DNA from: an uncultured Candidatus Marinamargulisbacteria bacterium
GTDB taxonomy: Bacteria > Margulisbacteria > Riflemargulisbacteria > GWF2-35-9 > DYQY01
Direction of reading: 5' to 3'
NCBI GenBank assembly: GCA_964643725.1
Contig: CAZXTL010000002.1
Coordinates: 5,574-69,573 of the forward strand
DNA: 64,000 nucleotides
This document shows positions 40,240 to 59,300 of this stretch, in pieces (positions within the stretch are counted from its first letter, which is position 1; the number at the start of each line of letters is the position of its first letter). The translations under genes and the position numbers were made by a program. The notes under the pieces were generated by a model, which was not told the DNA's origin, did no database searches, and saw only the letters and a program-made list of their open reading frames with translations.

Positions 40240-40408
40240 GCTCCAACAATACCACTCAGCATATTATTACGTCAAATATTAATATAGTAAAATAAATAAC
40301 GTATTATTATAAGTGTCCTCCCGACCAACGTGGAGGGATCTCTCGACTACACTCGAGATGACATGGAAATGATGACGTAAAAATATAAAATGATATAATT
40401 GGCATGAT

Positions 40409-41113
40409 ATGAAAAAAGATGACATCTACTCTAAACCAATGAATCCGTTACCAGCGTTTTCCTTTAATGAGAATGTAGCAGAAGTTTTTGATGACATGAT
40501 TTCTAGATCAGTACCCTGCTATAAAGAAACGCAAATGCTAATTGCCAACGCTATCCTAAGTTTCTATAAAGAAGGTAGCACGGTCTATGACCTTGGTTGT
40601 TCAACCGGCGAAACATTTAAAACTCTCTCAAATATGTCTGACAAACAAATAAAAATGATTGGGATAGATTACTCGCTACCAATGATAGAAAAAGCTAAAC
40701 AAAAATGCAAAGACCTTAAGAACATACAATTCATCCATGAAGATGTTTTAAATATTGAATACAGCAACTCCTCGGTTGTTGTCCTTAATTACCTTTTGCA
40801 ATTCATGACAATCACCAACAGAGTAGAACTACTTAAAAAACTAAAAAATTCACTTGTCCTAAATGGTGCGGTTATTATCTTCGAAAAAATAATAAGTAAG
40901 GAATTTAAAGATGATTTTATAAGTATTCATGAACTTTTTAAAGAACAACAAGGATACAGCAAAATGGAGATTAAACAAAAAAGGGAAGCACTGGAAAATG
41001 TACTAATTCCTTTAACTTACGAAGAAAATAAAAAACTCATTCAAGACGCTGGATTTACGAAAGTTGAAAAATGTTTTCAATACCTAAACTTCTGCGGAAT
41101 ACTTTGTAGCTAA
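40409..41113 (+). CDS. cmoA: Carboxy-S-adenosyl-L-methionine synthase (CmoA-like)
   Basis: 234 aa. Block-for-block similar to E. coli CmoA: [20 protein letters not shown] vs [29 protein letters not shown] vs VYDLGCSLG; and the C-terminal …[11 protein letters not shown]. Confidence 0.85.
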   Translation: [234 protein letters not shown]

Positions 41114-41748
41114 ATAGATTCGTACATATAAACCTTGGGAACTCCTGTCTCCCTTGGAACTAACCAATCAGAATTGTCTTGTAAGACATCCTCATATCTA
41201 TTAACTCTTAGAATAAGTCTGATTTTCCTAGGGTTCTCAATCAAACTATCCTTTATATTATTTAGCAATGCCCTTGCTTTATCGTGACTAAAAGGAAAAT
41301 ACAAATAAAAAATTGTTTCATTTGTAGGCTTATATGAAAGAATATCACCCTCAAACAATGTTGCTGACTCTAATTGACTCATAAACTTATTTATATTTTT
41401 ATTTGCTACATCCAAAACATTACCATCAACATCAACGCCAACTACATGCTTTAATCCAGCCAATATGGCCATCAGAAGAATTCTTCCCTTCCCACAACCT
41501 ATATCCACGAACACTTCCTTACTATTAATTAATCCTTCCTGCTTTAAAAACATAAAAAGCTGAGCCAACCTAATGTATGGTGTAGGCAAATAAAGCATAT
41601 CATCAGAGTCCATTTGCCTGTCTGGCATAATATAATCTTCATCGCCAGTATCTATTCCTAGACTTTTATCCCAGTCGTTATCAGAAATATCGCCCAAGCT
41701 CATATGTTGCAAAATATTCAATTCCATCGATATTAATTTAAAGTTCAT
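41110..41748 (-). CDS. Class I SAM-dependent methyltransferase, unknown substrate
   Basis: 212 aa; motif I VFVDIGCGKGR, post-I acidic D (GVDVD); convergent overlap with the cmoA stop. Confidence 0.7.
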   Translation of the reverse strand: MNFKLISMELNILQHMSLGDISDNDWDKSLGIDTGDEDYIMPDRQMDSDDMLYLPTPYIRLAQLFMFLKQEGLINSKEVFVDIGCGKGRILLMAILAGLKHVVGVDVDGNVLDVANKNINKFMSQLESATLFEGDILSYKPTNETIFYLYFPFSHDKARALLNNIKDSLIENPRKIRLILRVNRYEDVLQDNSDWLVPRETGVPKVYMYESI

Positions 41749-41817
41749 ATCAATTTATCGAAAGAACATTTCAAATTTCCTATATATTTAGAAATAATAA
41801 AATGATATATTTGAGAC

Positions 41818-43203
41818 ATGTCTATACTATTTATTTTCACACAAACAAACAAACCAAAGGACTACATTCAAACACACCCCCCTCTTGGAATTAGTTACTT
41901 AATCTCATACTTAAAAAGCAAAGGGCTATCACCATATGGAATTGACCTTTTAATAGATAAGGAAGAAACTATTTATAAAACTATTTCTGAAAAAAATATT
42001 GAATTCGTTTCTCTTTCAGTTTGCTTTGGAACAATCGAACACACAATCGAATTATCCAAAACCATAAAAACAAAATACCCTTATATTAAAATAATTTGGG
42101 GTGGCCCTCATGTTGAATTTTTATTAGATCATTTAAAACAAAGCTATCTAGACTATATTGTTTTTGGAGAAGGAGAAGAACCATTATATAAATTATTAAC
42201 TACTATAAATACCTATGATTTTAACCCTTATAGCATTCCAAACATTGCTTTTAACTATAACAATCAAATCCTTCAAACACCAAGAGAAAAGCCAACACAT
42301 ACACTAGACTCTCTTCCCTTTCCAGACAGAGAATGGGTTGACATCAAAAAGTATTTCAAACCACTCTCTCCAAAATCTTGCTATATTATCGGAAGTCGAT
42401 ATTGTCCCCACTCCTGTAGTTTTTGCATAAATTCTTGCAACAACAATCCATTTAGAGCTAGGTCTATTGCTAACATCATGGAAGAGGTAAGATTTATTAA
42501 AAAAAACTATCCTATGTATAAGCGATTTTCATTTGTTGATGAAACACTTAACCATTCAAAAGATAGATTAATCGAATTCTGTACTGCTATAAAAAAAGAA
42601 AACGTTGAGTGGCATAGTAATATCCGTGTTGATGACTATATGGCAGATAAAGAAATTATTAGTTTAATGAAATCTTCAGGCAACAATTTTATTGAAATTG
42701 GCATAGAAAGTGGTTCTCAGCTAATACTAAACATGAACAACAAAAACATTTCACTTGATAAGGTAAAGGAATTCTTATCCATCACAACCTCTCTTGATAT
42801 TCCTGTATTATGTAATTTCATGATGCCTCATTTTCAAGACACCCCAGAAACACTTAAACAAACTATAGATTTAATAATATTCATTTCATCTAATTATCTT
42901 ATTCTTCCTGCAACTCTAAGGACTATCGTTCTGCCAACCTTAAAAAATGAACAAATAATAAAAAAATATGGAATTTTCACCTCTAGTACAGGTGCAATAA
43001 TTAAAACAAATAGCATTCCTGATTATTTGATAAACACTTATTTAACTAAAGCAAATGAATGCAGGAAAAACAGTACAATGAGAAATGCCCATAAAATATT
43101 TCTATCTCAAGGATATGATGTTGCTGATGTAATGAAATCATTAAGCACAATGGACTTAAAAAATGACAAAGAACTTAATGATCTCATGTCTGCGTTTCTC
43201 TAA
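41818..43203 (+). CDS. B12-binding-domain radical SAM enzyme (class B rSAM, methyltransferase-like)
   Basis: 461 aa; N-terminal cobalamin-binding-like region ending …IIWGGPHVEF…; CxxxCxxC cluster motif GSRYCPHSCSFCIN. Confidence 0.8.
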   Translation: MSILFIFTQTNKPKDYIQTHPPLGISYLISYLKSKGLSPYGIDLLIDKEETIYKTISEKNIEFVSLSVCFGTIEHTIELSKTIKTKYPYIKIIWGGPHVEFLLDHLKQSYLDYIVFGEGEEPLYKLLTTINTYDFNPYSIPNIAFNYNNQILQTPREKPTHTLDSLPFPDREWVDIKKYFKPLSPKSCYIIGSRYCPHSCSFCINSCNNNPFRARSIANIMEEVRFIKKNYPMYKRFSFVDETLNHSKDRLIEFCTAIKKENVEWHSNIRVDDYMADKEIISLMKSSGNNFIEIGIESGSQLILNMNNKNISLDKVKEFLSITTSLDIPVLCNFMMPHFQDTPETLKQTIDLIIFISSNYLILPATLRTIVLPTLKNEQIIKKYGIFTSSTGAIIKTNSIPDYLINTYLTKANECRKNSTMRNAHKIFLSQGYDVADVMKSLSTMDLKNDKELNDLMSAFL

Positions 43204-43208
43204 AAAAT

Positions 43209-44042
43209 ATGATTGAACTATTGCATCGTGATTCCATTTACCTTACCAATGATACTCGTAAAAACAGGTGGGCTATTCCCTACTCTCATGAAGCCACAAA
43301 TGCCAGAGCCGACATTTTGCTTCACCAAAACAAACAATACATTGAAAACAAAAAAATTCTTGATTTAGGTTGCCATTTTGGGACAATGGCATATATCAGC
43401 TCAAAACTAAATGCCAAAAATATATTAGGTGTTGATGGAGATTCCTCCCTTATAAAACAAGCCAAAAACTTTCAAAAGGAAGTTGATTTACAAAATGCTG
43501 AGTTTATTAAAAATGATGTTATTGAGTTTCTAACAAATCTAGAAGAAAATTCCTTTGATACGATTCTTTGCTTTGGTTTACTTTACTATATACCTGACAA
43601 TTTTCATCTACTAAAACTAATGAAGAAAGTCGCAAAAGAAGCTATTATTTTGGATACTTTCACTGCCTATTACAATGCTATTCAAGGAAAAGATGGACCA
43701 GCCTTCTTTAATAATCTAGACGAAAAAGCTTTCAACTTACCAATGATGATGCACTCTGTTACTCAAGCTAAAAAACAAAACCTCTATGAATTAGAACAAA
43801 ACTCCTTTAAAACTAACAAAAAGAAAAACCCATTAACGCTGCTTGCTTGCCCTACAAAACCACTATTGGAATTATACTTTCAAGCACTTGAACTTAAATA
43901 TGAACAACTCAATTGGTCAAAATATCTAATAAATCCTAATTTAAGATGGCAAGAAATGGAAACAGCTGGTGCTAAAAAGAAATCTCATTGGAGTGACATC
44001 TATTCAAGCGAAATAAGAGTTAGCTACTTAATAAAAAAGTGA
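43209..44042 (+). CDS. SAM/Cx-SAM-dependent methyltransferase, CmoB-like
   Basis: 277 aa; motif I ILDLGCHFG…ILGVDGD; FDTILCFGLLYYIPDNFHLLKLMK parallels CmoB [24 protein letters not shown]; 5-nt gap from the rSAM gene. Confidence 0.6.
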   Translation: MIELLHRDSIYLTNDTRKNRWAIPYSHEATNARADILLHQNKQYIENKKILDLGCHFGTMAYISSKLNAKNILGVDGDSSLIKQAKNFQKEVDLQNAEFIKNDVIEFLTNLEENSFDTILCFGLLYYIPDNFHLLKLMKKVAKEAIILDTFTAYYNAIQGKDGPAFFNNLDEKAFNLPMMMHSVTQAKKQNLYELEQNSFKTNKKKNPLTLLACPTKPLLELYFQALELKYEQLNWSKYLINPNLRWQEMETAGAKKKSHWSDIYSSEIRVSYLIKK

Positions 44043-44058
44043 GCACCGCTCACTTTTA
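44034..44058 (+). terminator. Intrinsic terminator after the CmoB-like gene
   Basis: AAAAGTGAGC-ACC-GCTCACTTTT: perfect hairpin flanked by an A-run and T-run, overlapping the stop codon. Confidence 0.6.
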
Positions 44059-44242
44059 AAATTCCCCTACTGCTGCCCTAACCCCCTGCAGTCTGACAGC
44101 AGTCCCCTTATCTTTATATATGTACTATGCCCGATACTATATTTTTTAAACCTACTTAATTTCAAAAAGCCTCATCCGCTAAAACTTACTACAATCTATT
44201 AACCAATAATCAAACTACGCACCTTCTCCTAAAAGAGAAGGT

Positions 44243-47452: not shown

Positions 47453-47605
47453 ATGGGAACATGGATAATTAAGCTTCCGCTCTTACTAATTCTATTTATC
47501 TTAATTTTTCTTTTAATAGGCTGTATCAGACAAGACATAAAAGCTAAACGACCTTTTTTTCTTAAAATAACCAATAAAGATAAAGTAAATTCAGTAGAAA
47601 AATAA
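47453..47605 (+). CDS. Small (50 aa) lipoprotein-like peptide upstream of the YcaO pair
   Basis: Not in the ORF track (<60 aa). AAGGAG RBS at 47441-47446, 6 nt before ATG 47453. MGTWIIKLPLLLILFILIFLLIGCIRQDIKAKRPFFLKITNKDKVNSVEK: hydrophobic signal with LIGC lipobox and a basic 27-aa mature part. Confidence 0.45.
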   Translation: MGTWIIKLPLLLILFILIFLLIGCIRQDIKAKRPFFLKITNKDKVNSVEK

Positions 47606-47621
47606 CAAGGATACCTTTCTA

Positions 47622-49121
47622 ATGGTTGATTTTATACTCAAAGAAAATAATGATGGTCCTTTTGACTTAAAATCAACGCTAAAAACATATACATATGATC
47701 AAGATAAATACATCCATCCTCAAGTCACGTATGCAAAAACATACAGAAAAGTTAAAAGAAATGTAGAAAACGCCAAACTAATTATAATAACTGAAGAAAA
47801 GCCAGTATTTAGTTATGACTTTTCTAATGAGAAAATAACTACACATGGTAAAGGCGTAACAATGGAACAAGCCAAATCCAGTGCAATCATGGAATTTAGT
47901 GAAAGATATAGCTGGTTAAACTTTGACTATAAAAATGCTCCAGGATACATGGTAGCCTCCTTTAATGAACTGGCAGAACAAGAAGACATGTCATACATAG
48001 AACCTGGATTTGTTTTCCACAACTTCGAAAAATCTAAAGACTTTGAAGTTCACATAAAATCAATCCCCATAAAGTGGATAGACGGTTATTCTCTTACACA
48101 AAAAAAAACAATCAAATACCCTCTTAGTTGGATAAATTATATGCATGGCTCAAACGGTATCTGTACTGGAAACATAAAAGAAGAAGCTATTGTCCAAGGA
48201 ATATGTGAAGTTATTGAAAGAAATAATTGTAACAAATTTGTAAAAAATTATAAAAAAGAAAAGATAAATATTATCGATAACGAAAGTATTGAGCATGAAG
48301 GCTTTAAAGAAATGCTAGATTTCTTTAAAAAAGAACATACAGAGCTATATCTTCTCCATATTCCTACTGGATGTGACCTGCCAGTTATCATGGCTATTTG
48401 CATAAATGAGAAATTACAACCTCAAGTTCTTAGCCAAGGAATTGGTTATGGCTGTCATACAGACCCAGTAAAAGCTGTACTACGTGCTGTCACAGAATAT
48501 TTTCAGGCCAGAACTGGCATTATTGAGAAACAAAAAAAAGTACCATTTGACATGGCAATAGCTAAAAGTAATTCTATATTCAGCTTAGATTTAGACATAG
48601 ACTGGATTGTAAAAAACAATAAACTTATCCACATTAAAGATATAAAAAACCTTTCTTCAAATGATTTTAAAGAAGAAATTGAAACTCTTATTAATATTAC
48701 TAAACAAAGTGGGCTTGAAATTCTTATCGCAAGCAAAATGCACCCCAAACTTGAAATCCCCGTCTACCGAGTTTTTTCCCCTCAAGCAGAGCCACCAGTT
48801 AATTTATGTTCCAACTTTCATGTCCCAGAATACATAGTAGCTCAAATGTATTATGAAGCAGGAATGATTGATAAATCAGAAGAATTTATCCAAGAAAATC
48901 GTGAAAGAATATGCTGTTTTCCTTATTCGCTTTTTGATAATTTTGCTGCACCTATGTTTGGCGAAGAATTTTCAAATTTAGCAAAAAATACCATAAAAAG
49001 ATCTAAAATTAGTGCCGATCAAATTTGCAGGAAGGATTACTTATTACTCCATGTAAATGTTGCATCTGTTGGGAAAGACGCTGAAGATAATTTCAGAAGG
49101 TTTTCAAGTATTTTTAAATAA
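47622..49121 (+). CDS. ycaO: YcaO-domain protein (copy 1)
   Basis: 499 aa. YcaO ATP-binding signatures parallel E. coli YcaO: THGKGVTMEQAKSSAIMEFSERYS vs TNGKGATKKAALASALGEYFERLS, and SNGICTGNIKEEAIVQGICEVIERN vs SNGMSAGNTRNEARVQGLSEVFERY. Confidence 0.85.
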   Translation: MVDFILKENNDGPFDLKSTLKTYTYDQDKYIHPQVTYAKTYRKVKRNVENAKLIIITEEKPVFSYDFSNEKITTHGKGVTMEQAKSSAIMEFSERYSWLNFDYKNAPGYMVASFNELAEQEDMSYIEPGFVFHNFEKSKDFEVHIKSIPIKWIDGYSLTQKKTIKYPLSWINYMHGSNGICTGNIKEEAIVQGICEVIERNNCNKFVKNYKKEKINIIDNESIEHEGFKEMLDFFKKEHTELYLLHIPTGCDLPVIMAICINEKLQPQVLSQGIGYGCHTDPVKAVLRAVTEYFQARTGIIEKQKKVPFDMAIAKSNSIFSLDLDIDWIVKNNKLIHIKDIKNLSSNDFKEEIETLINITKQSGLEILIASKMHPKLEIPVYRVFSPQAEPPVNLCSNFHVPEYIVAQMYYEAGMIDKSEEFIQENRERICCFPYSLFDNFAAPMFGEEFSNLAKNTIKRSKISADQICRKDYLLLHVNVASVGKDAEDNFRRFSSIFK

Positions 49122-49141
49122 TTAAGAAAGGTTATCTTTTT

Positions 49142-50641
49142 GTGGTTGATTTTATACTCAAAGAAAATAATGATGGTCCTTTTGATTTAAAGTCTACTCA
49201 AAAGACATACACTTATGATCAAGATAAATTCATCCACCCTCAAATCACCTATGCAAAAACTTTTAATAAAGTAAAAAGATCAATAGAAAACACAAAACTA
49301 ATTACAATTTCTGAAGAAAGACCAGTATTTAGTTATGACTTCTCAAATGGAACAATAACTTCACACGGCAAAGGGTTAACCAAAGATCAAGCTAAGTCTA
49401 GTGCAATCATGGAATTCTGTGAAAGATATAGTTGGCTAAACTTTGACTATAAAAATGCTCCTGGATATATAGTAACCTCATTTAACGAACTTGCTAAAAA
49501 CGAAAATATGTCCTACATTGAACCTTGCTTTGTTTTCCATGGATTTGAAAGATCAAAAGACTTTGAACCTCACATAAAATCTATCCCTACAAAGTGGATA
49601 GACGGTTTTTCGCTAACAAATAACAAAATAATCAAATACCCTCTTAGTTGGATAAACTATATGCAAGGATCTAACGGAATATGTACTGGCAACATAAAAG
49701 AAGAAGCCATTGTCCAGGGAATCTGTGAAGTTATTGAAAGAAATAACTGTAATAAATTTATAGGAAACTATAAAAATGAAAAAATAAATATTATCGAAAA
49801 CGAAAGTATTGAACATGAAGGTTTTATAGAAATCCTAAATTTCTTAAAGAAAGAAAAAACGGAACTTTATCTTTTACATATCCCTACAGGATGCGACATG
49901 CCTGTTGTCATGGCTTATTGCATAAACGATAATTTCGAAGCTCATCTTAGACAAGTCATAGGTTATGGCTGTCATACAGACCCTACCAAAGCTGTATTTC
50001 GTGCTGTAACCGAATATTTCCAAGCCAGAACTGGACTTATTGAAAAACAAAAAAATGTACCACTTAGGAAGGCTTTGGCTAAAGGTAATTTCCTGTTTGT
50101 CTTAGATTTAGATATAGACTGGATTGTCAAAAACAATCGACATATCCCAATTAAGGATATAAAGGATATTTCTTCCAATGATTTTAAAGAAGAAATCAAT
50201 ACTCTTATCAACATCACTAAACAATACGGGATGGAAATTCTAATTGCCAGCAAAAACCATCCCAAACTTAATATCCCAGTCTATAAAGTTTTCTCCCCTC
50301 AAGCTGAACCACCTGTTAATTTATGTGCAAATGTTCATATTCCAGAGTGGATAATAGCTCAAATGTATTACGAAGCAGGCATGATTGATAAATCAGATGA
50401 CTTTATTCAAAAAAATAGAAATAAATTTTCAAGTTTTGATAATTCTGTTTTTGATAATTTTGCTGAACCAATATTTGGCAAAACTATTTCTGATTTAGCA
50501 AAGAAAGCAATAAAAACCATAAAAATTAACGCTGACATGTTATGTAAAAAAGATTACTTATTAGTTCTTGCCGATGTTGCAGCTGTTGATAAAAATGCAG
50601 AAGAAAATATCAAAAAATTCCATAAATTTCAATCTAGATAG
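49142..50641 (+). CDS. ycaO: YcaO-domain protein (copy 2, tandem paralog; GTG start)
   Basis: 499 aa, collinear and about 70% identical to copy 1 with the same YcaO motifs; its first ~45 nt are nearly identical at the DNA level; GTG start at 49142. Confidence 0.85.
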   Translation: MVDFILKENNDGPFDLKSTQKTYTYDQDKFIHPQITYAKTFNKVKRSIENTKLITISEERPVFSYDFSNGTITSHGKGLTKDQAKSSAIMEFCERYSWLNFDYKNAPGYIVTSFNELAKNENMSYIEPCFVFHGFERSKDFEPHIKSIPTKWIDGFSLTNNKIIKYPLSWINYMQGSNGICTGNIKEEAIVQGICEVIERNNCNKFIGNYKNEKINIIENESIEHEGFIEILNFLKKEKTELYLLHIPTGCDMPVVMAYCINDNFEAHLRQVIGYGCHTDPTKAVFRAVTEYFQARTGLIEKQKNVPLRKALAKGNFLFVLDLDIDWIVKNNRHIPIKDIKDISSNDFKEEINTLINITKQYGMEILIASKNHPKLNIPVYKVFSPQAEPPVNLCANVHIPEWIIAQMYYEAGMIDKSDDFIQKNRNKFSSFDNSVFDNFAEPIFGKTISDLAKKAIKTIKINADMLCKKDYLLVLADVAAVDKNAEENIKKFHKFQSR

Positions 50642-51737
50642 ACATTCCCTTTTTATGTTTACCCTTTAACCTAGAAATCACATCACCTTGATTATAATGA
50701 TCTAATTTAATTGGATCTGGGGTATCAACAATTTCCTCCACCATATCATCCTCTTCAACTAATATTTCTTCTTTTACAAAAACAACTTCATCTGGAATCT
50801 GCTCTTCTTGTACGTTTTTAAATTTATCTACTGAATCACTAACTTTTAAAATTTGCTTTTGTATTTTCTTTAAATCTGTTTGAATTACTTTCTGTATTCT
50901 GTTCTCTTCCTTATCCATATCTAATTTAAAATTACTTGCTTCCTCAACAACCTCAGACTTTTTAGAAATAACTTCTTCTTTAAATTCTATAGAATTCAAA
51001 TTTGCATATTTCTGAACATATTTAACAGCTTGCTTAACATTAACTCCCTCCATAGAAACTAATCCTTCATCACTCATGTCTTCTAGCCATTTTTGAATAT
51101 CCTGAGGAGAATAATCAGAACTAATAAACGGTCCCAACCTTTCAGTTAGCTCTTCCATTTTACTTTCCAACTCTTGCTTCCTTACACTAAGCTTATCCAA
51201 AATCTTCTGTAGACTATTTAACCCAACCTGTTTTATTTTATTATCTAAATCATCTGCCACTTCCATTTCTTGGCTAAGCTTACTTCGATCAACTTTTGCA
51301 ACTATCGCTTTATTAGACTTAACATTGCCACCTTGAAAATGTAAAATATCTTTAGTTTCTTTCCCTGCATTTTCGGCCAAAAAAAGATAATCTCTGACCT
51401 TAACTATCTTATTACTTTGAGGATATGCTTCAATCATCCCATCTAAAACAGGTATCGGATAATATGCCAAAACATTCATAAGTTCATTCGCACTTTTTGA
51501 TTCTTGTAAAACTTTCTTAAATGCTAAAACTATTTGCTCATTAAGATAAAAAACTTTATCATCATGAAACTTTAATTTATCTTGTTTATTAATTAACTTA
51601 GCAAGTTTACCTAAAGTTTGCATTTCTTGAATAGAATACCCACGTATTCCAGAAGCAATTTTTCTTAATACAAATTCGATAGCAAAATCAAAGTTTTGTC
51701 TTTGATCAAGATTAATTAAAATCTGGTCAATATTCAC
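50634..51737 (-). CDS. Hypothetical coiled-coil/acidic protein (367 aa), last gene of the giant-protein operon
   Basis: No recognisable domain; its stop overlaps the ycaO2 stop by 8 nt (convergent); its start overlaps the stop of the upstream 524-aa gene. Confidence 0.55.
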   Translation of the reverse strand: MNIDQILINLDQRQNFDFAIEFVLRKIASGIRGYSIQEMQTLGKLAKLINKQDKLKFHDDKVFYLNEQIVLAFKKVLQESKSANELMNVLAYYPIPVLDGMIEAYPQSNKIVKVRDYLFLAENAGKETKDILHFQGGNVKSNKAIVAKVDRSKLSQEMEVADDLDNKIKQVGLNSLQKILDKLSVRKQELESKMEELTERLGPFISSDYSPQDIQKWLEDMSDEGLVSMEGVNVKQAVKYVQKYANLNSIEFKEEVISKKSEVVEEASNFKLDMDKEENRIQKVIQTDLKKIQKQILKVSDSVDKFKNVQEEQIPDEVVFVKEEILVEEDDMVEEIVDTPDPIKLDHYNQGDVISRLKGKHKKGMSI

Positions 51738-53311
51738 TAATTAGCCTCCGCTATCATCTTCTCAACCAATCCACTTTCAAGTAATCTCTCAATAGACTTA
51801 TTCATTGCTATCTGAAAATATTCTGGGACGTTATCATCATCCATAAAATCTGGTTTTTCTACTTTACCTTGTCTTTCTAATTCATCCATCTCATTATAAA
51901 CTTCTTCTGATATCTTTCTGAAAAGAACCGTCTCTTCTTCCTTATACTTCTCTACTACTTTTTCAGAAAGTTCAAAATCCTTGATTGCCTTATTGATTGC
52001 CTGTGGATCAATCTCTCCAATCTGAAACCCTGGAATAGCAAGAAGCGATTCAGCTAATTCAGGGTTATACTTCCTAACATAATTCATAGGATCTAAAGAA
52101 ATTATTGATAATATTCGTTTATGTTGTTCTAAACTCAAAGGGATAACATATCTCATCGTTACTTCTATGAAGATATCAGCCCTCTCTGCTATGAACTGGT
52201 CTTCACGTAATTCAATGTACTTTACTAAGTTTATACTATCAAGTGGCGTCATTAATACAGCATTTTCTAAAAACATTTCACAGTTATTATCTAACAAATA
52301 CTGTTTAACCGACTCATAACTATATACCTCTGCCTCTCTACATTGTTCATCTACTGACTTAAGATCAGAGAAGGTCTTCAATTCATCAGCAAGCTCTTTT
52401 AGTCTATTTATCACATTGTGCTTTTTACACATTTTTTTTAACAACTCTTGAAATAAACTAGAGTTAAAAGCCTTATTCTGGCTTAAGTTTCTAAAATCAA
52501 TATTTGTTAAAACACTCTGCATATTTAACTGATCATCTTCCATAGAATTATCACGAACCGATAAAATAAATGCAATAATTTGTTCTAAAGATTTCCTTTC
52601 CTCTAAATCCTTAACAGAGGACACCCTACTCTTGATATCCTCAATTTCTATAAATAAATCAGACATAAACTGCTCTGCATTATATACACTAAAATAAATA
52701 TCATTTTGATCACTATAAGGAACAAATACTTTCCTCTCTACATCTCTCCACCCAACCATATCAGTATCTGCAATCATTACCAGCTTATTGTAAAAAACGA
52801 TAAAGTCTTTCTCATCAATATAGGGATTTACTTCATAAACTCCCTTCATGTTATCCATAATTCTCATTAATGCTGCGAAATCATTTGGATTTCTAATAAC
52901 TCTTGTCTGTACCCACTCTCCTTTAATTATGAGAGTCATACTAATAACACTATCCATAACAACTTCCACTTTATACAAATAATCTTGTATTGTGAATTCA
53001 AAAATATCACCATCATGTTTTGGATTAAAAGAGAATTCAGACATATCATCTAAGTACTTATTAATAACCTCTTCTGGATATTCTCCTGTATCTTTTGCAG
53101 CTAATGAAATATCTAAAAAATCCTTCATAAGTTTATATAACTTCTGCCCTTGAAACGATTCTACGTGCGCTTCTCTAAAATCTACTACAGGCACATGTTC
53201 TACTGTGGATTTTGTATTGATTCCTAAAGAATGTTCAATCATAAAGTTTAACTCATCGGCTATTCTTAAAGCTTTTTGCATTCTTTTCTTTATATACTGT
53301 TCTTGATCCAT
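51737..53311 (-). CDS. Hypothetical protein (524 aa), middle gene of the giant-protein operon
   Basis: No recognisable domain; 1-nt gap from the giant ORF stop and 1-nt overlap with the downstream gene, suggesting translational coupling. Confidence 0.55.
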   Translation of the reverse strand: MDQEQYIKKRMQKALRIADELNFMIEHSLGINTKSTVEHVPVVDFREAHVESFQGQKLYKLMKDFLDISLAAKDTGEYPEEVINKYLDDMSEFSFNPKHDGDIFEFTIQDYLYKVEVVMDSVISMTLIIKGEWVQTRVIRNPNDFAALMRIMDNMKGVYEVNPYIDEKDFIVFYNKLVMIADTDMVGWRDVERKVFVPYSDQNDIYFSVYNAEQFMSDLFIEIEDIKSRVSSVKDLEERKSLEQIIAFILSVRDNSMEDDQLNMQSVLTNIDFRNLSQNKAFNSSLFQELLKKMCKKHNVINRLKELADELKTFSDLKSVDEQCREAEVYSYESVKQYLLDNNCEMFLENAVLMTPLDSINLVKYIELREDQFIAERADIFIEVTMRYVIPLSLEQHKRILSIISLDPMNYVRKYNPELAESLLAIPGFQIGEIDPQAINKAIKDFELSEKVVEKYKEEETVLFRKISEEVYNEMDELERQGKVEKPDFMDDDNVPEYFQIAMNKSIERLLESGLVEKMIAEAN

Positions 53312-53312
53312 A

Positions 53313-56300
53313 TTATTTCCTTACTCCATCAGCTTCATTAAGTCCACTTAAAATAAGCTCATTTCCGCGCTTAAGAATTGTTGTTCCTTTGCTTAATGAG
53401 CTCTCCACTCTTTCCCTTAATCTATCCCTTGTTTCCTTTGACAAATATCCAACAGCTTGACCCACCGCATCGCCTAAGGTAGGCAAAGATATTATAAGAT
53501 ACTCTAATGTACTATCATAGCTTTCCCTAAGTTTAGCTAAACCTAATCTTGCCTCATTAGAATTTTGAGCTAACTTAGCTTCATACAAAGCCAATATCTT
53601 TAGAGCTGCAACAAACTTTTCTTGAGGATCGTTATTGCTATTAATAAAACTTTCAATTAACTCCTTAACCATTACTTCACCTTTATTATTTAAAACTAAT
53701 AAACTATTTACATTTGATGAAAAAGGTTGAAACGTATCTTGTCCCCACGAACTTAACTTTAAGTATGCTGTTATATACTCCTGTAAATAACTGCTGACTT
53801 TCTCATTATCAATTAAGGCTGGGCTCTTCTCAAGTTGCCTCAGCACAGACTTAACTGCTTCATTTCTTAAGTCTTTTGACAATACCTCTATAGGCAGATT
53901 ACTTATTAACAAATCTGTACCTAAAGGCCTAATTGATGCTGTTGCTGATTCCAGAGGATTTACTCGATTGCTATTCGTTATTATTCTTCTTAAATCTGAA
54001 AAGTTTTGAAGGAATATTTGGCTAGTTGCTCCTTCTTTCACAGGCAAATTTAATCTTGAAATAACATTGGAAACTATACTTATTTGCTTTTGCTGTGACT
54101 CTTTCCTTACTGATAAAATCATTAGTGGAATAATTTCCTTGGCTACATCCTGTTCAAGTTGACCTGAAGAAATTAGCACATCAATTAATGCCAATGACTT
54201 ACTCACAACGATCTCAGAATCCAAAGATGACATCTTCTTTATTACATCACAAATATTTTTAACAAAACTACTTTTCTCTTTATCAGAAAGCTTCATGCTT
54301 ACCACGATTTGCTCTGCCAAATCAACAAACTGCTCAAGGTCTTGAATCGCTGTCTCTTGAGTAATATACCCTAGAATCACAGATCTGTTATCCTCAGAAA
54401 TTTGAGGACTTTTTAGAATATAATTTAAAATTTTCTCAGGTGACTTAAGCAAAATCAATTCTTTGATTTTCTCTTCTGGAGTACTCTGACTGCTTAATAC
54501 CTCCGCTATCTTCTGCTCTTTTCCTATAGTCATTTGTGCATTACTAATAAGGCTACTTAATGAGCTAAGTTTTTCAGAAAGAGTTTTCTTCTGAGATATA
54601 GTTAATTTTGATAAATTAACATCTTTTGATAAAGTATCAATTGTCTTTTGTAATTCATCATAGTCCAAAGACTTGCTGTCCTTAAATTTATTCAATTCAG
54701 TTTTTAAATCTGTACTAATCGATATTACTCCTAGCTTAACAATAACTTCAATATTCTCAACAATGTATCTTGTTTTATTAGTATAATTTTTATCAATTGC
54801 TTCATAAATATTATCAAGCAACTTGAGGACTCCTGAGACATTTTTTGCAATAATATCCTCAGGATTGAGTCCACCTTGTCCCTTTTCTGGGATAAAATTA
54901 TCTGACACTATATTCTCAACATTTGCTTGTATTTGTTGGTACTGATTAGCAACATTAACTGCTGGCAATTGGTTAATATTAAATTGTTCTGCTATTACTT
55001 TAATGACCTTAGTTTTCTCTAAAACATTCTCTTCATCTTTACCTATATTCAAAGAAGTAAATGGAATAGAAAGAGCCATATTTATTATCTTATTTATTTC
55101 TTTCTCACTTCTGGGTATGGGGCTATATTTAATAAGCTCAAAAATATCAGGCATCTTTTCCTTGACTGACTCTTCTTTAATTGTGTCACTAGTAACCAAT
55201 TTCTCTAATAAACCCATCGCCTTAATTAATGCCTTATCTGCCTTATCTGTTGGCACTTGAGCTACTGCAAGCAACAACTCTTCTACTATCTGGATATGAT
55301 CCATTTTCTTAGCTATATCCTCCAAAATATCCATAGCTAATATTTGGAACTCAGCTTCATCTTTAATTTTGACCCTATCTTCTTGCAACAGATAACGAAT
55401 TAGTGCCTTACTGTTCTCTCTGCTAACTATCTGATCATTGAGCACCACAGAATTCTCTGTAACATATCGGACAACAGCGATTGGATTATCTAATGCTATT
55501 AACTTTTCTAACTTATCCTTAGCAGTAATATCACCACTGAAAATGTTAGACAACTGTCCATCTTTGCTCTTTGTAAGGCTTATTGTTTCCAGAGTAGTCT
55601 TAAGTGCAACTAGTGATTCTTGTAACTGAACCTTAATCTTAGGATCTTTTTCAGCTTTACTTAATTCTTTCAAAACCTCAACAACTTCCAATAATTTATT
55701 AATACTATCCTTACTCTTCAAATCACCTTTCCCAACCTCTATTATAAGTTTATTAAGTTGAGGAGATATAGGTAGCTGTTGCTGTATTTGTTCTAAAGAT
55801 TGTACTACTTTGCTAACTGCTTGTGTCTCTTCCTTGGCAACTTGTTCAACATTCTTCTTGCTATTATCTATAAAAGGAGAGTAAAAAGCCTCAATAACTT
55901 TCTGAATATTCTCCAATGATTGCAAGGTTGTAGTCTGCGTCTTCCTCACGATTTCTGATAACATTCCAGCATCTGTCTGCTTGGCTTTTGCTACTTGAGT
56001 ATCGATACCTTTGTTATCAATATTAATATTATTAATAACAGGAATCGTCGCATTTGATGATATCGCCACCGACGCGGCTGATTGTATCGTAGGATCTTCT
56101 TGTTTATTTGTTTGAATCTCTTGTGCATTTAACTGCTCAGAATTCTTTCTAATCTCAAGTACCTTTGCGTCATCAAGTCTTGCCCCAATTGTCTGAGATA
56201 ATACCTCATTAGGTTGCATTATTGGCTGTACCCTTCCCTGAACAGGAGTGGTAGGTGACACCACTGCTGGAGCTGCATCATTTATTGTTGTATCTTCTTG

Positions 56301-59300
56301 CTTTTTGGTTTGAACATCGTTAACTTTTAACTTCTCTAGCTTCAAATTTATCTCTGGCATTTGTTGGGAAATCATCTTTATAACAGATGTTTGAGCTAGA
56401 ACTTCCTTTGACTTATTAATATTGTCTAAAATGCTTGGATCAGACAATATGGCTAACATAACATTCAAAACTTCTTGATCCTTACGAGGCTTTGGGTTTT
56501 CCTTAAGAGCTTGAACTAATTGAGGAACTTGTTTCTTAACATCATCTGCCTTAACGATATCCTCTCTAACCATCTCTTCAAGTAAGACTATCCCTTTAAC
56601 TAACATCTGCTCAGATTTATTTTTTGACATCACTATTACTGATGATAGTTCTTTTACTATCTGCTCTTTTGAGATTACGCTACCCATATCTTTAAGTGCA
56701 TCCTTTACCAATACATTAAACTCATCAACATCCTTTGGTTTAACCTTATCTTCTTGTAATACATAACTCATCAATGCCTTTCGATTATTCTCACCAAACA
56801 ATGGTTCTTTCATTACAACAGGATTTTCCTTTACATATCTAACTACTGCGATTGGATTATTTATCGAATTTAAAAGTTCTATCTTTTCCTCAGGTGGTGC
56901 TGTGCTATTAAATATCTTCGCTAAGGCTCCATCCTTACTCTTCGTAAGACTTATTGTCTCTAGAGTTGTCTTTAGTTCAGTAAGAGCTTCTTGTATCTGA
57001 ACCTTTATCTTAGGATCCTTTTCAGACTTACTTAGTTCTTTTAATACCTCTACTACTTCCAATAATTTATTCATACTATCCTTACTCTTCAAATCACCTT
57101 TACTAATCTGAGTAATAAGTTCTGAGGAGATAGGCATTTGTTGTTTTATTTGTTCGAGAGATTTCACAATCTCCTTCACTGCTTCTTTTTCTTCCTTGTC
57201 AATTTGGGCTGAATCCCTTTTGCTCTTATCTACAAATGGATCATGAAAAGAATCTATTATCTGCTGTATAGAAGCTATTGCTAGCATTGTTGAAGGCTCT
57301 GTTACTTTTGGCCCTTCCCCTGCCATTGTCTGTTTTGCTTGAGCTACAACTGGAACGCTATTAACTTTTTGTGTCTGATTATTACTAACAGGTGAAACTG
57401 TAGCTCCTTGTGCTGCTGCTCCTGCTTGAACAGTTGTATCCTCGGAAGTATCCTCTGCCAGACTTTGTACAGTTGCCTGCAACTGAGCATCATTTCTCCT
57501 GTTTTTATTTTCTGTATCCAAAGATATCTTGCCGTCCTCAAAAATAGCTTGATCCTTGTGTTCTAAATTTACTTTAGCTCCTACAACCTCAAATCCACTA
57601 GTAGCGAGTGATGATTCTGCCTTCTTCATCTGCAAGGTTGTCAGCACACTACTTTCAGCATTATTTTGCCCTTGAGTAAGAGCAATATCATCCAAAACTT
57701 TCAGACCCTCAGCAGAAAAATCTATTCGATGTGTTCTTTTGTCAGTAGGAGTCGTAAATTCTGCGGAAATATGAGCCGGACTATTAGCATTAGAGTCTTT
57801 AGTAATAACAAACTGATAATTATCAATATTAAGTTCTTTAGCAATAGCTGCCATTAAAGCAATTATTCTATCGCAATCATTTTCATCTATTTCATATTTC
57901 TCTTTACTAAATTGAGTAAGTTTATCAACAATCTTTGCACGTACTGCTTGCATGTCTACTTTTCCATCTATTATAGAAGAGGTAACAGCTTCATTAACTG
58001 CCTTTTTAGCCTCATCAGCCAATGAGCTTTGGTTAATAACAGTTACATTTTTACTTTTCAAAAATATATTTTGAACCGCAAATGTAGTTAACGCTGTTAC
58101 TATTTGATTGCGTGTTAGTGGATCTGAAGCTGCTTTAGGCCCTGCCTTGTCAACCGCTCCAGGAACAACCTTAGTCTTAGCTATATCTCCAAACGCCTCT
58201 CTAATTGGTCCTTGGAGTGCCTCTCTCACTTGCGAAATAGAAAGGGCTGAACCTAAAACATCCAATGCCTGATTTATTACTGCTTGAAGCGCTACAGTTG
58301 GGTTACTGTTTATCCCTGCATTAATAGCTGAAAATCCAGAATTGCCAGCCCCGGATGACGTGCCCGCTTGTACTCCTTGTAAAACCTCATAGACCTTTGC
58401 TCTTTGCGAAATAGCATCGCTAATAAGTTTTTTAAGTAACATACTAGTTATTTCTGAATTAAATGACTTAAGTTTATCTTGAGCATCAAAAATGCCTGGT
58501 TCCTCTTTACCTGCGACAGAATCTATCTTTTGGTTAACGTCCTTTGGTGTTGCATTTGGTGCTGCATTTGGTGCTGCGTTTGGTGCTGCATTTGCTACTG
58601 CGTCTGTTACCGCTGGCGCTGCATTTGCTACTGCATCTGTTACCGCTGGCGCTGCTGTTGCGACTGCATCTGTTACCGCTGGTGCTGCATTTGCCACTGC
58701 TTCTGTTACTGCTGGTGCTGCTGTTGCGGTTGCGTCTGCTACTGCTGGTGCTGCTGTTGATAAAGCATCTGTTACTGCTACAGCTGCTGTTGCGACAGCG
58801 TTTCCTACTGTTACTGCGACATCTGCTAGCGCGCCTAGAATCCCGCCACCTCCTCCAGATGTTGCTGGTGCTGCTTTTGCTGGTGCTGGTGCAGATTGCG
58901 CTGCTGGTTTTGTTTCTGCTTTTGTTTCTGGTTTTGCGGCTGTTGCTTGTGCTTTATCCACAGATGTTGCTGATTGACCTTTAGTGCTCGGATCGTTGTA
59001 CTTTGCCTTTGCAATATCTATAAGAGCAGCTAAAACTAAATTCGCCATACTATCAAACATCGTTTTCATTCTCTCTGACATTTGTAAGGCAAAAGCAGAA
59101 TCTTCACTTGCAGCAGCATTACTTTGTATCTTACGTGATAAAGCATCACCAGAATTACCTGTACCAAAAGCCTTCTCGGCTTTAGCTTCCGCGTTAGCTC
59201 TAAATTCTTCTCTCGCTTTTTTCTCTACATAATAAGTCAAATATTCTTTTATTAAGTTTCTTATTAGATTCATTAAAATACTTGTTACTTTGGTACTTAA

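What the first reader, a model, noticed from the sequence alone, without database searches (positions are those of the whole stretch)
40409..44058. Non-canonical cmoA neighbourhood: CmoA-like Cx-SAM synthase, divergent methyltransferase, B12-binding radical SAM enzyme, CmoB-like methyltransferase
In characterised systems cmoA and cmoB are adjacent and make cmo5U34 on tRNA. Here the CmoA-like gene is separated from a CmoB-like (shorter, 277 aa) gene by a convergently overlapping class-I methyltransferase and a cobalamin-domain radical SAM enzyme (CxxxCxxC). The unit is closed by a clean intrinsic terminator.

A carboxy-SAM generator combined with a class-B rSAM (typically C-methylation at unactivated carbons) and two further SAM methyltransferases suggests an elaborated or different nucleoside or small-molecule modification pathway.
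Basis: partly seen in the sequence, partly recalled or inferred. Interest (0 to 1): 0.65.

Follow-up and report, generated by a model that had tools for sequence, protein, structure and literature searches.

The report
cmoA paired with compact non-CmoB transferase
A Margulisbacteria genome pairs the carboxy-SAM synthase CmoA with a compact methyltransferase-fold protein that sits where CmoB normally does, a pairing seen in several phyla; the vitamin-B12 radical SAM enzyme between them is a clade-specific, dispensable add-on of unknown substrate.

Summary
All four genes exist at the stated coordinates. They are not one conserved four-gene unit.

- **CmoA (40409-41113):** a bona fide CmoA. It passes the TIGR00740 equivalog cutoff and aligns end to end with solved CmoA structures.
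- **The 277-aa protein (MT277):** not a CmoB family member. It scores 41 bits against a 209-bit cutoff, where E. coli CmoB scores 532. It lacks CmoB's ~100-residue N-terminal domain, and fold searches do not single out CmoB.
- **What MT277 is instead:** a member of a well-conserved ~275-285-aa family. That family lies immediately downstream of cmoA in 13 loci from Margulisbacteria, Nitrospinota, Leptospirales, Spirochaetota and unclassified bacteria. It is the likely Cx-SAM consumer.
- **The slot between cmoA and MT277 is variable in Margulisbacteria.** It can be empty, or hold an antisense methyltransferase (MT212), the B12 radical SAM enzyme, both (only in this window's lineage), or a diverged MT277 paralogue.
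- **The rSAM:** confined to one Margulisbacteria clade and always in that slot. It was inherited vertically and lost twice, and it matches no characterised subfamily. A functional link to Cx-SAM is plausible but rests on operon context alone.

Verdict: a new variant of a known kind, of moderate interest.

The parts
40372..40399 (+). Promoter-like site upstream of cmoA (ATGACG-16-TATAAT, with an extended TG)
   Evidence: 10 of 12 matches, the best + strand site in the region. It is a consensus match only. The total number of sites in the region is not above the shuffled expectation.
40409..41113 (+). cmoA, carboxy-S-adenosyl-L-methionine synthase (234 aa)
   Evidence: - TIGR00740 equivalog: 226.2 bits against a 193.3 cutoff.
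- Full-length match to solved CmoA/YecO structures 1im8 (E 1.9e-45) and 4gek (E 9e-39).
- NCBI names the orthologues CmoA.
41110..41748 (-). MT212, a small generic class I SAM methyltransferase. It is antisense and overlaps the cmoA stop by 4 bp. It is a lineage-specific insert.
   Evidence: - Pfam Methyltransf_25: 31.7 bits against a cutoff of 27. No specific NCBIfam family.
- Present only in the window's lineage and in L012, at 89% identity.
- 623 relatives at E<=1e-10, but only one above 50% identity.
- Unrelated to MT277 beyond the Rossmann core.
41770..41798 (+). Promoter-like site for the rSAM-MT277 transcript (TTCAAA-17-AATAAT)
   Evidence: 9 of 12 matches, a weak consensus match. The inference is that rSAM-MT277 needs its own promoter here because MT212 is antisense.
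41818..43203 (+). Class B (cobalamin-domain) radical SAM enzyme of an uncharacterised subfamily (461 aa)
   Evidence: - PF02310 plus PF04055.
- All NCBIfam equivalogs fall far below cutoff. The best is BchE, 136 against 481.
- AF2 model with pLDDT 88.9.
- Orthologues occur only in Margulisbacteria, always between cmoA and MT277.
43209..44042 (+). MT277, a member of a conserved ~275-285-aa class I transferase family. It is the candidate Cx-SAM-dependent partner of CmoA (a CmoB analogue, not a CmoB family member).
   Evidence: - Family alignment A1 has 30 invariant residues.
- It lies immediately downstream of cmoA in 13 loci from several phyla.
- Its start is 5 bp after the rSAM stop.
- hhalign to CmoB: 96.4% probability, over the core only, with Y200 aligned to Y126.
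- AF2 model with pLDDT 91.4.
44035..44057 (.). Conserved hairpin AAAAAGTGAGC-ACC-GCTCACTTTT, terminator-like in both directions
   Evidence: - dG -12.1 kcal/mol, z -6.3.
- Conserved in L012, L005 and L013.
- 4 T follow on the + strand and 6 T on the - strand.
- Not called by the consensus terminator scan.

Best explanation
**Core module.** The conserved functional unit is the two-gene module cmoA + MT277. CmoA converts SAM and prephenate into carboxy-SAM (Cx-SAM); this follows from family membership. MT277 is a compact class I transferase that has taken CmoB's place next to cmoA in Margulisbacteria, some Nitrospinota, Leptospirales, Spirochaetota and unclassified bacteria. I infer that it uses Cx-SAM to carboxymethylate its substrate. 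The most likely substrate is 5-hydroxyuridine-34 of tRNA, giving cmo5U. MT277 would then be a functional analogue of CmoB that is not a member of the CmoB family.

**Variable slot.** In Margulisbacteria the gap between cmoA and MT277 collects accessory genes:
- An ancestor of one clade acquired a cobalamin-type radical SAM enzyme there. It is tightly coupled to MT277 (gaps of 5-60 bp), was inherited vertically and was lost twice.
- The window's own lineage later acquired an antisense small methyltransferase (MT212).
- Another lineage carries a diverged MT277 paralogue in the same slot.

**Role of the rSAM.** I infer that the rSAM performs an optional, B12-dependent radical step on the same RNA or nucleoside target, most likely a C-methylation. 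This would be analogous to the optional CmoM step in E. coli and to the anaerobically induced B12-rSAM rRNA methylase RlmX.

**Shown:** gene identities, domain classes, conservation and variability of gene order, and vertical inheritance of the rSAM.
**Inferred:** Cx-SAM use by MT277, tRNA as the target, and any functional link of the rSAM or MT212 to the pathway.
For: **CmoA**
- Passes its equivalog cutoff.
- Aligns over its full length with solved CmoA structures.

**MT277 family and its link to cmoA**
- Strongly conserved over its full length, with 30 invariant positions in 34 sequences.
- cmoA is directly upstream on the same strand in 13 of the fetched loci, from at least four phylum-level groups. 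Other neighbours are not shared.
- Six more loci have the same order with the rSAM in between.
- L105/L106 have a paralogue in between.
- No canonical cmoB lies in the window or in 1.44 Mb of loci. The best CmoB match is MT277 itself.

**Residue-level hints that MT277 uses Cx-SAM**
- Of E. coli CmoB and CmoA, the two specific proteins tested by hhalign, CmoB is the closer: 96.4% against 47%.
- Most family members hit Pfam PF08003 weakly.
- CmoB Tyr200, a Cx-SAM carboxylate ligand (PMC4482062), aligns with the invariant Y126.
- The invariant R270 sits at the start of the last strand, 7 residues from the C-terminus. CmoB Arg315 sits 8 from its end. MAFFT aligns the two.
- A basic cluster before a shared P-[FY] anchor aligns with CmoB R90-K91.
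- The tandem paralogue MT264 keeps the fold but has replaced exactly these positions: Y126Q, R270C, R17K, R20K.

**rSAM**
- Every orthologue found (100, 88, 85, 71 and 54% identity) lies between cmoA and MT277.
- The gaps are 1-15 bp from cmoA and 5-60 bp to MT277.
- Pairwise identities are congruent with the flanking genes.
- The fold is class B rSAM, nearest to C-methyltransferases.
- There is a precedent for a B12-rSAM acting on RNA, RlmX (PMC13602947).
Against: **Against MT277 as a Cx-SAM user**
- It fails both curated CmoB models by a wide margin.
- It lacks CmoB's N-terminal domain.
- The critical CmoB Lys91 has no demonstrably conserved equivalent.
- The Arg315 and Lys91 correspondences rest on weak alignments, not on a 3D superposition.

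**Against a universal cmoA link**
- In most Nitrospinaceae loci MT277 is not next to cmoA. I could not check whether cmoA, canonical cmoB or trhP/trhO exist elsewhere in any of these genomes.

**Against a functional role for the rSAM or MT212 in the pathway**
- The rSAM is absent from a ~90%-identical relative and from another sister lineage that both keep cmoA-MT277. It is therefore dispensable, and the link is contextual only.
- In this window the antisense MT212 splits cmoA from rSAM-MT277.
- MT212 has no evidence of a pathway link beyond its position.
Confidence: 0.5

Rival explanations
1. The rSAM, and likewise MT212, is an operon hitch-hiker. It modifies something unrelated, such as a protein, RiPP, lipid or cofactor, and sits between cmoA and MT277 only because that intergenic slot tolerates insertions.
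For: - The slot holds four different contents in related genomes, and the rSAM is lost without loss of cmoA-MT277.
- The closest structural neighbours act on small molecules, a protein glutamine and tryptophan.
- The next-nearest sequence relatives (35-38% identity) are not near cmoA.
- The rSAM evolves faster than its flanks: 54% against 70% identity.
Against: - The rSAM kept the same position and tight coupling over divergence down to 54% identity in three lineages.
- No orthologue was found in any other context, in the protein database or in the metagenome scan.
- The start of MT277 is 5 bp after the rSAM stop.
Confidence: 0.3
2. MT277 is an ordinary SAM-dependent methyltransferase, for example one that makes mo5U like TrmR or esterifies cmo5U like CmoM. 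The true Cx-SAM transferase is encoded elsewhere.
For: - The best Pfam and NCBIfam hits are generic methyltransferase models.
- Nitrospinaceae copies are not cmoA-linked.
Against: - It occupies exactly the cmoB position, directly after cmoA, in many unrelated lineages.
- Invariant Y126 and R270 match CmoB's carboxylate ligands, and these residues are lost specifically in the tandem paralogue.
- No cmoB is seen in any flank.
Confidence: 0.17
3. The module carboxymethylates a non-tRNA target (DNA, peptide or metabolite), as in phage CmoA-CmoX, TglE or MccS.
For: - CmoA homologues are known to feed other carboxymethylations (PMC10491745, PMC12783734).
- MT277 lacks the CmoB-specific N-terminal domain.
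Against: - The setting is single-copy and housekeeping-like, beside nusA-infB, comEC and leuCD-like genes.
- It is a two-gene unit with no precursor peptide, ligase or transporter, and with unrelated neighbours across phyla.
- The nearby 50-aa ORF is a lipoprotein-like peptide that is also present where the inserts are absent.
Confidence: 0.1
4. The rSAM works with the downstream tandem YcaO proteins or the giant transglutaminase-like protein in a protein-modification system reminiscent of the McrA modifications.
For: - A 35%-identical rSAM lies beside a YcaO (37-39% identity), a second B12-rSAM and a 3547-aa protein in L009/L010.
- The YcaO pair is present in the window and in L005/L090, which have the rSAM, and absent from L012 and L013, which lack it.
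- The best NCBIfam hit of the first YcaO (the only one scanned against NCBIfam) is the McrA thioamidation family. MgmA is a top structural neighbour of the rSAM.
Against: - L014, L091 and L092 have the rSAM but no YcaO nearby.
- The giant protein, p367 and p524 are present whether or not the rSAM is.
- Five genes, two of them housekeeping-type, separate the rSAM from the YcaOs.
Confidence: 0.07

Closest known systems
E. coli cmoA-cmoB (cmo5U34 tRNA wobble modification; CmoA Cx-SAM synthase plus CmoB carboxymethyltransferase)
   Same: - A bona fide CmoA is followed on the same strand by a class I transferase.
- The transferase core is most similar to CmoB of the two specific proteins compared by hhalign (E. 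coli CmoB and CmoA).
- The Tyr200 equivalent is invariant, and a C-terminal Arg occupies the Arg315-like position.
   Different: - The partner is 277 aa against 323 aa.
- It lacks CmoB's unique ~100-residue N-terminal domain.
- It scores 41 bits against the 209-bit CmoB cutoff.
- It has its own conserved N- and C-terminal elaborations.
- It is interrupted by accessory genes in Margulisbacteria.
Phage CmoA-CmoX (Cx-SAM-dependent DNA cytosine C5-carboxymethyltransferase; PMC12783734)
   Same: - CmoA is paired with a non-CmoB transferase recruited from another methyltransferase lineage.
- An Arg is proposed to recognise the cofactor carboxylate.
   Different: - CmoX is a C5-DNA-methyltransferase homologue, and MT277 is not.
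- The context here is chromosomal and housekeeping-like, not phage.
- There is no CmoY-type ligase.
Class B (cobalamin-dependent) radical SAM methyltransferases: CysS, MgmA, TsrM, TokK
   Same: - An N-terminal B12-binding Rossmann domain plus a CxxxCxxC radical SAM barrel.
   Different: - 14-20% identity.
- No NCBIfam subfamily cutoff is reached.
- The substrate is unknown.
- None of these is encoded next to cmoA.
RlmX, the cobalamin-dependent rSAM that methylates ribose C5' at 23S rRNA positions 2449 and 2498 under anaerobiosis (Ishiguro et al. 2025, as cited in PMC13602947 and PMC13469067)
   Same: It shows that a B12-rSAM can act on RNA as an optional, condition-dependent modification.
   Different: - Its sequence identity could not be established here.
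- E. coli YgiQ is my guess at RlmX's identity, not a confirmed assignment. It is only a remote relative with a different architecture.
CmoM (SAM-dependent methyl esterification of cmo5U to mcmo5U)
   Same: It is an optional extra methyltransferase acting after CmoB. This is a conceptual analogue for MT212 and for the MT264 paralogue.
   Different: - No specific sequence relationship was shown.
- CmoM is not encoded in the cmoAB operon in E. coli.

Membership tests
CmoA (carboxy-SAM synthase) | Score above the curated equivalog cutoff | tested here: met
   TIGR00740: 226.2 bits against a 193.3 cutoff, over the full length. The second model, NF011995, is not reached (152.6 against 285).
CmoA (carboxy-SAM synthase) | End-to-end similarity to structurally characterised CmoA | tested here: met
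   1im8 at E 1.9e-45 (residues 1-231) and 4gek at E 9e-39. The QKR..LENV segment is conserved.
CmoA (carboxy-SAM synthase) | Prephenate-dependent carboxylation of SAM | not testable with these tools
   Requires a biochemical assay.
CmoB (tRNA U34 carboxymethyltransferase) | Score above the curated equivalog cutoff | tested here: not met
   NF011650: 41.0 against 209. TIGR00452: 33.4 against 275. Only residues 41-151 match. As a control, E. coli CmoB scores 531.6 and 490.3.
CmoB (tRNA U34 carboxymethyltransferase) | CmoB-specific N-terminal domain of ~100 residues (PMC10491745) | tested here: not met
   Only ~45 residues precede the Rossmann fold. hhalign covers CmoB residues 116-213 only. See the secondary structure of the model.
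CmoB (tRNA U34 carboxymethyltransferase) | Tyr200, a Cx-SAM carboxylate ligand | tested here: met
   It aligns with Y126, which is invariant in 34 of 34 family members.
CmoB (tRNA U34 carboxymethyltransferase) | Lys91, essential for Cx-SAM selectivity | tested here: inconclusive
   BLAST aligns CmoB R90-K91 with the family's R17-x18. Position 18 is variable, while R17 and R20 are invariant. No 3D superposition was possible.
CmoB (tRNA U34 carboxymethyltransferase) | Arg315, a Cx-SAM carboxylate ligand | tested here: inconclusive
   The invariant R270 is at the start of the last strand, 7 residues from the end; in CmoB the distance is 8. MAFFT aligns them. hhalign is unreliable in this region.
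CmoB (tRNA U34 carboxymethyltransferase) | Fold closer to CmoB than to other class I methyltransferases | tested here: not met
CmoB (tRNA U34 carboxymethyltransferase) | Encoded immediately downstream of cmoA | tested here: met
   13 loci have direct adjacency, and more have an insert in between. This is a contextual feature, not a membership criterion.
Class B cobalamin-dependent radical SAM enzymes | CxxxCxxC cluster motif in a radical SAM domain | tested here: met
   C196, C200 and C203 are invariant in A2 and A4. PF04055: 73 bits.
Class B cobalamin-dependent radical SAM enzymes | N-terminal B12-binding domain | tested here: met
   PF02310: 57.2 bits against a cutoff of 32.1, residues 19-126.
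Class B cobalamin-dependent radical SAM enzymes | Two-domain fold like solved members | tested here: met
Class B cobalamin-dependent radical SAM enzymes | Membership of a characterised subfamily (BchE, PhpK, HpnJ, ApyD, MgmA and others) | tested here: not met
   All are far below cutoff. The best is BchE, 136 against 481.
Class B cobalamin-dependent radical SAM enzymes | Cobalamin binding and methyl transfer | not testable with these tools
   Requires biochemistry.
RlmX / YgiQ-type rSAM | Orthology to the E. coli enzyme | tested here: not met
   Tested for YgiQ only. YgiQ has PF08497 + PF04055 + PF11842 over 739 aa. hhalign gives 92% probability and 20% identity with large insertions. Whether RlmX is YgiQ could not be verified.

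The most novel reading that the evidence does not exclude
The MT277 family is a previously unrecognised class of Cx-SAM-dependent carboxymethyltransferases that replaces CmoB in several phyla. In one Margulisbacteria clade the embedded B12 radical SAM enzyme extends the chemistry to give a new wobble nucleoside. It could do this in one of three ways:
- C-methylating the xo5U side chain or the ribose.
- Providing an O2-independent route to ho5U.
- Most radically, using Cx-SAM to form carboxymethyl-cobalamin for radical C-carboxymethylation.
Probability: 0.12. Interest if true: 0.85.

Novelty: new variant of a known kind. Interest (0 to 1): 0.5.

Why it matters
**If MT277 is a Cx-SAM transferase**
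- cmo5U-type wobble modification, or another carboxymethylation, would be carried out in Margulisbacteria, Nitrospinota and spirochaete lineages by an enzyme that current annotation calls a generic methyltransferase.
- The list of natural Cx-SAM users would grow. It currently comprises CmoB, CmoX, and the TglE- and MccS-linked enzymes.
- The family would be a compact scaffold for studying how a methyltransferase fold selects carboxy-SAM. The paralogue MT264, which has lost the candidate carboxylate ligands, provides a natural control.

**The rSAM**
- Its strict embedding in this operon makes a specific experiment possible. Co-express cmoA, the rSAM and MT277 and look for a new nucleoside.
- This could reveal the first cobalamin radical SAM enzyme acting on tRNA.

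**If the rSAM is a hitch-hiker,** the finding reduces to an annotation correction.

Tried and rejected
**(1) Is MT277 a true CmoB?** Rejected by curated HMMs with a positive control, by PDB sequence search and by architecture.

**(3) Global and low-threshold hhalign against CmoB**. It extends the alignment but is unreliable outside the core.

**(4) Looked for a tRNA-pathway theme around MT277 (TrhP, TrhO)** in Nitrospinaceae and other phyla. Neighbours are unrelated: TPR/Sel1 proteins, Pst, a sulfatase, a porin, def and a kinase. This is uninformative.

**(5) CmoA subclade co-distribution with MT277.** The next-nearest CmoAs are ordinary Campylobacterota-type proteins. No special subclade is visible.

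**(6) Is the 50-aa ORF a RiPP precursor for the YcaOs?** Rejected. It is a lipobox-bearing small peptide that is also present in L012, which lacks the YcaOs.

**(7) YcaO or giant-protein linkage of the rSAM.** Weak.

**(8) MT212 related to the sense-strand MT264 of L105?** No. MT264 is instead an MT277 paralogue.

**(9) Rfam search of the region.** Nothing at E<=1 other than a chance snoRNA hit.

**(10) Identity of RlmX.** The primary paper is not held.

Full report
**1. What is in the sequence**

The region holds four real genes at the coordinates given.
- cmoA: 40409-41113 (+), 234 aa.
- MT212, a small class I methyltransferase: 41110-41748 (-), 212 aa.
- A radical SAM protein: 41818-43203 (+), 461 aa.
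- MT277, a second class I methyltransferase-fold protein: 43209-44042 (+), 277 aa.

cmoA and MT212 converge and overlap by 4 bp. MT277 starts 5 bp after the rSAM stop.

The window is low-GC (about 0.34). Its nearest named relatives are Candidatus Margulisbacteria and Riflemargulisbacteria MAGs.

The surrounding genes are housekeeping-type.
- Upstream: infB, nusA and a ComEC-like gene.
- Downstream: a 126-aa gene, Bax1-I and an aconitase-family large/small subunit pair.

**2. Identities**

*CmoA.* It is a genuine CmoA.
- TIGR00740 gives 226 bits against a 193-bit cutoff.
- It aligns over its full length with solved CmoA/YecO structures, E 1.9e-45.

*The 461-aa protein.* It is a class B radical SAM enzyme.
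- It has a B12-binding domain plus a radical SAM domain with C196-x3-C200-x2-C203.
- It reaches no characterised subfamily. BchE, PhpK, HpnJ, ApyD, MgmA-type and others are all far below cutoff.

*MT212.* It is a generic small methyltransferase. It has many 30-38%-identical relatives but only one close one.

**3. Is the 277-aa protein CmoB-like?**

Not as a family member.
- It scores 41 and 33 bits on the two CmoB equivalog models, against cutoffs of 209 and 275, and only over the Rossmann core. E. coli CmoB scores 532 and 490 on the same models.
- It hits no CmoB chain in PDB sequence space.
- It lacks the ~100-residue N-terminal domain that is unique to CmoB (PMC10491745).

Profile comparison does give CmoB 96.4% probability, against 47% for CmoA. 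The match is limited to 97 core columns.

**4. What the 277-aa protein is**

It belongs to a well-defined family of ~275-285-aa proteins.
- Thirty positions are invariant over the whole length in 34 sequences.
- A scan of GTDB species representatives found 77 loci. They come from Margulisbacteria (Rifle-, Marina- and Termititenax groups), many Nitrospinota, Leptospirales, Spirochaetota and unclassified bacteria.

I searched these loci with the window's proteins and clustered the neighbouring genes.
- In 13 loci from at least four phylum-level groups, cmoA lies immediately upstream on the same strand. This is the position cmoB occupies in E. coli.
- Outside Margulisbacteria no other neighbour is shared. 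The pair itself is therefore the conserved unit.
- In most Nitrospinaceae loci the family member stands alone, and its neighbours are uninformative. I could not check whether cmoA lies elsewhere in those genomes.
- No canonical cmoB occurs in the window or in 1.44 Mb of fetched loci. The best match to E. coli CmoB is MT277 itself.

**5. Residue-level hints**

CmoB recognises the Cx-SAM carboxylate with Lys91, Tyr200 and Arg315 (PMC4482062).
- **Tyr200** aligns with the invariant Y126 of MT277.
- **Arg315** may correspond to the invariant R270. R270 starts the final beta-strand 7 residues from the C-terminus; Arg315 lies 8 residues from CmoB's end. MAFFT aligns the two.
- **Lys91** may correspond to a basic cluster. 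BLAST aligns CmoB W-R90-K91-G-P-F with the family motif R-x-x-R-W-A-I-P-Y.

These last two correspondences are inferences from weak alignments. hhalign is unreliable outside the core, and I could not superpose coordinates.

There is also a natural control.
- In a groundwater Margulisbacteria lineage (L105/L106) a 264-aa gene lies between cmoA and the MT277 orthologue. It is on the same strand and its ends overlap those of its neighbours.
- It is a full-length diverged paralogue of MT277, at hhalign probability 100%.
- It has replaced exactly the candidate cofactor-pocket residues: Y126Q, Y127N, R270C, R17K, R20K and H56C. It keeps most other invariant residues.

**6. The four-gene arrangement is not conserved; the slot is variable**

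Among Margulisbacteria the space between cmoA and MT277 has five different contents.

| Content of the slot | Where it is seen |
|---|---|
| Nothing | L013 (Termititenax), L015, L027 |
| MT212 only | L012, ~90% identical to the window |
| rSAM only | L005-L007 and L090 at 71%; L014, L091 and L092 at 54% |
| MT212 and rSAM | Only the window and identical contigs L001-L003 |
| The MT264 paralogue | L105, L106 |

All rSAM orthologues found lie in this slot. This holds for the 5.8-billion-protein search and for the metagenome contig scan. Beyond 54% identity the next relatives drop to 38% or less and sit in other contexts.

The rSAM's pairwise identities (71, 54 and 54%) are congruent with those of CmoA (83, 71 and 70%). 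The most parsimonious history is one gain in an ancestor of this clade, vertical descent, and independent losses in the L012 and L013 lineages.

The rSAM is therefore accessory and dispensable, but persistently co-located and tightly coupled. Gaps are 1-15 bp from cmoA and 5-60 bp to MT277.

In the window itself the antisense MT212 splits the locus into three transcription units. Promoter-like sites lie before cmoA and before the rSAM.

**7. The rival link to the YcaO genes**

A 35%-identical rSAM sits beside a YcaO, a second B12-rSAM and a giant protein in L009/L010. The tandem YcaO pair in the window (47622-50641) is itself a variable insert.
- Present in the window, L005 and L090.
- Absent from L012, L013 and L014.

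The correlation with the rSAM is imperfect.
- L014, L091 and L092 have the rSAM without a YcaO.
- The giant protein and its two companions are present regardless of the rSAM.
- Several unrelated genes lie between the rSAM and the YcaOs.

I rate this rival low.

**8. Mechanistic reading**

*Shown:*
- A bona fide Cx-SAM synthase gene.
- A conserved partner transferase family that is not CmoB.
- A clade-restricted class B rSAM embedded between them.

*Inferred:*
- MT277 consumes Cx-SAM. The most likely reaction is carboxymethylation of ho5U34 of tRNA. This rests on the housekeeping setting, the two-gene unit, and the absence of any precursor peptide, ligase or transporter.
- The rSAM adds an optional cobalamin-dependent radical modification to the same RNA or nucleoside, probably a C-methylation.

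The known pathway already has an optional terminal step, CmoM (PMC6599085). A cobalamin-dependent rSAM that methylates RNA ribose carbons under anaerobiosis, RlmX, has recently been described (PMC13602947 and PMC13469067). An RNA substrate is therefore chemically precedented.

I could not retrieve the RlmX sequence. E. coli YgiQ is my guess at its identity. It is only a remote relative with a different architecture.

No published Cx-SAM pathway involves a radical SAM enzyme in the literature I could search.

**9. Terminator**

The hairpin at 44035-44057 is real and conserved. On the + strand only four T follow it, and the consensus scan did not call it. On the - strand six U follow.

It closes a ~95-nt conserved, structured, G-rich segment that follows a promoter-like site. 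It may therefore be primarily the terminator of a minus-strand small RNA or 3' UTR, shared bidirectionally with MT277.

**10. Verdict**

It is wrong in calling the 277-aa protein CmoB-like by family, and in treating the four genes as one closed unit.

The interesting core is different from what was flagged. It is a widespread cmoA-MT277 pairing that points to an unrecognised CmoB-replacing transferase family. It also includes an accessory-gene slot that, in one Margulisbacteria clade, holds an orphan B12 radical SAM enzyme.

This is a new variant of a known kind, of moderate interest (0.5). I put about 12% on the rSAM creating new Cx-SAM-linked or xo5U-linked chemistry.

Noticed in passing
window 44030-44135 (minus strand): A conserved non-coding element lies between MT277 and the 126-aa gene.
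- A promoter-like site, TTGAAA-18-TATAGT, sits at 44165..44136.
- About 95 nt follow, with three G-rich motifs flanking a 9-bp stem. The stem shows one compensatory GC<->AU change and two one-sided changes across four loci.
- The segment ends in the hairpin plus six U.
- By eye in the five-locus alignment, it looks better conserved at the nucleotide level than the adjacent sequence.
- It is single-copy in the window and has no Rfam match.

It is a candidate small RNA or 3' UTR element.
   Followed up: partly
window 47622-49121 and 49142-50641 (+): Two tandem paralogous YcaO-domain genes of 499 aa each. The first YcaO (the only one scanned against NCBIfam) best matches the McrA-glycine thioamidation family, far below cutoff (135 against 365 bits). 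The pair is a variable insertion between the aconitase small-subunit gene and the 367-aa gene. It is present in the window, L005 and L090, and absent from L012, L013 and L014. Substrate unknown.
   Followed up: partly
window 53313-63584 (-), with 51737-53311 and 50634-51737 (-): A giant 3423-aa ORF whose only Pfam hit is a transglutaminase-like core (residues 229-304). Genes of 524 aa and 367 aa with no Pfam hit lie just downstream of it on the same (minus) strand. All three are conserved in the Margulisbacteria relatives whose fetched sequence reaches them (L013, L014; the 367- and 524-aa genes also in L012). GC rises to 0.43 at 58-60 kb inside the ORF.
   Followed up: partly
L009/L010 6303-17416: In another low-GC contig, one from the same sample as L092, a YcaO lies beside two B12-binding radical SAM genes and a 3547-aa protein. 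The YcaO is 37-39% identical to the window's. One of the rSAM genes is 35% identical to the window's rSAM. The giant protein is weakly homologous to the window's giant ORF. This may be a protein-modification system.
   Followed up: no
L105 5705-6499 (also L106): A tandem diverged paralogue of the MT277 family (264 aa) lies between cmoA and the MT277 orthologue in a groundwater Margulisbacteria lineage. It has lost the candidate cofactor-pocket residues (Y126Q, R270C, R17K, R20K, H56C) but keeps the rest of the fold signature.
   Followed up: yes
window 47453-47605 (+): A conserved 42-50-aa ORF with a hydrophobic N-terminus and a lipobox-like LIGC motif, followed by KAKRPFFL. It is present after the aconitase small subunit in the window, L005 and L012, whether or not the YcaO genes are there.
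   Followed up: partly
window 25487-26596 (-): A Fic/DOC-family protein with DUF4172 and a C-terminal HTH-like region lies among purine-biosynthesis and translation genes. Local GC skew departs from the surrounding strand bias at 24-26 kb.
   Followed up: no
window 40313-40362 (+): Two short inverted repeats (cctccc...ggagg and tctcgag-type) lie in the 170-bp spacer between the divergent ComEC-like gene and cmoA. No Rfam match at E<=1.
   Followed up: no
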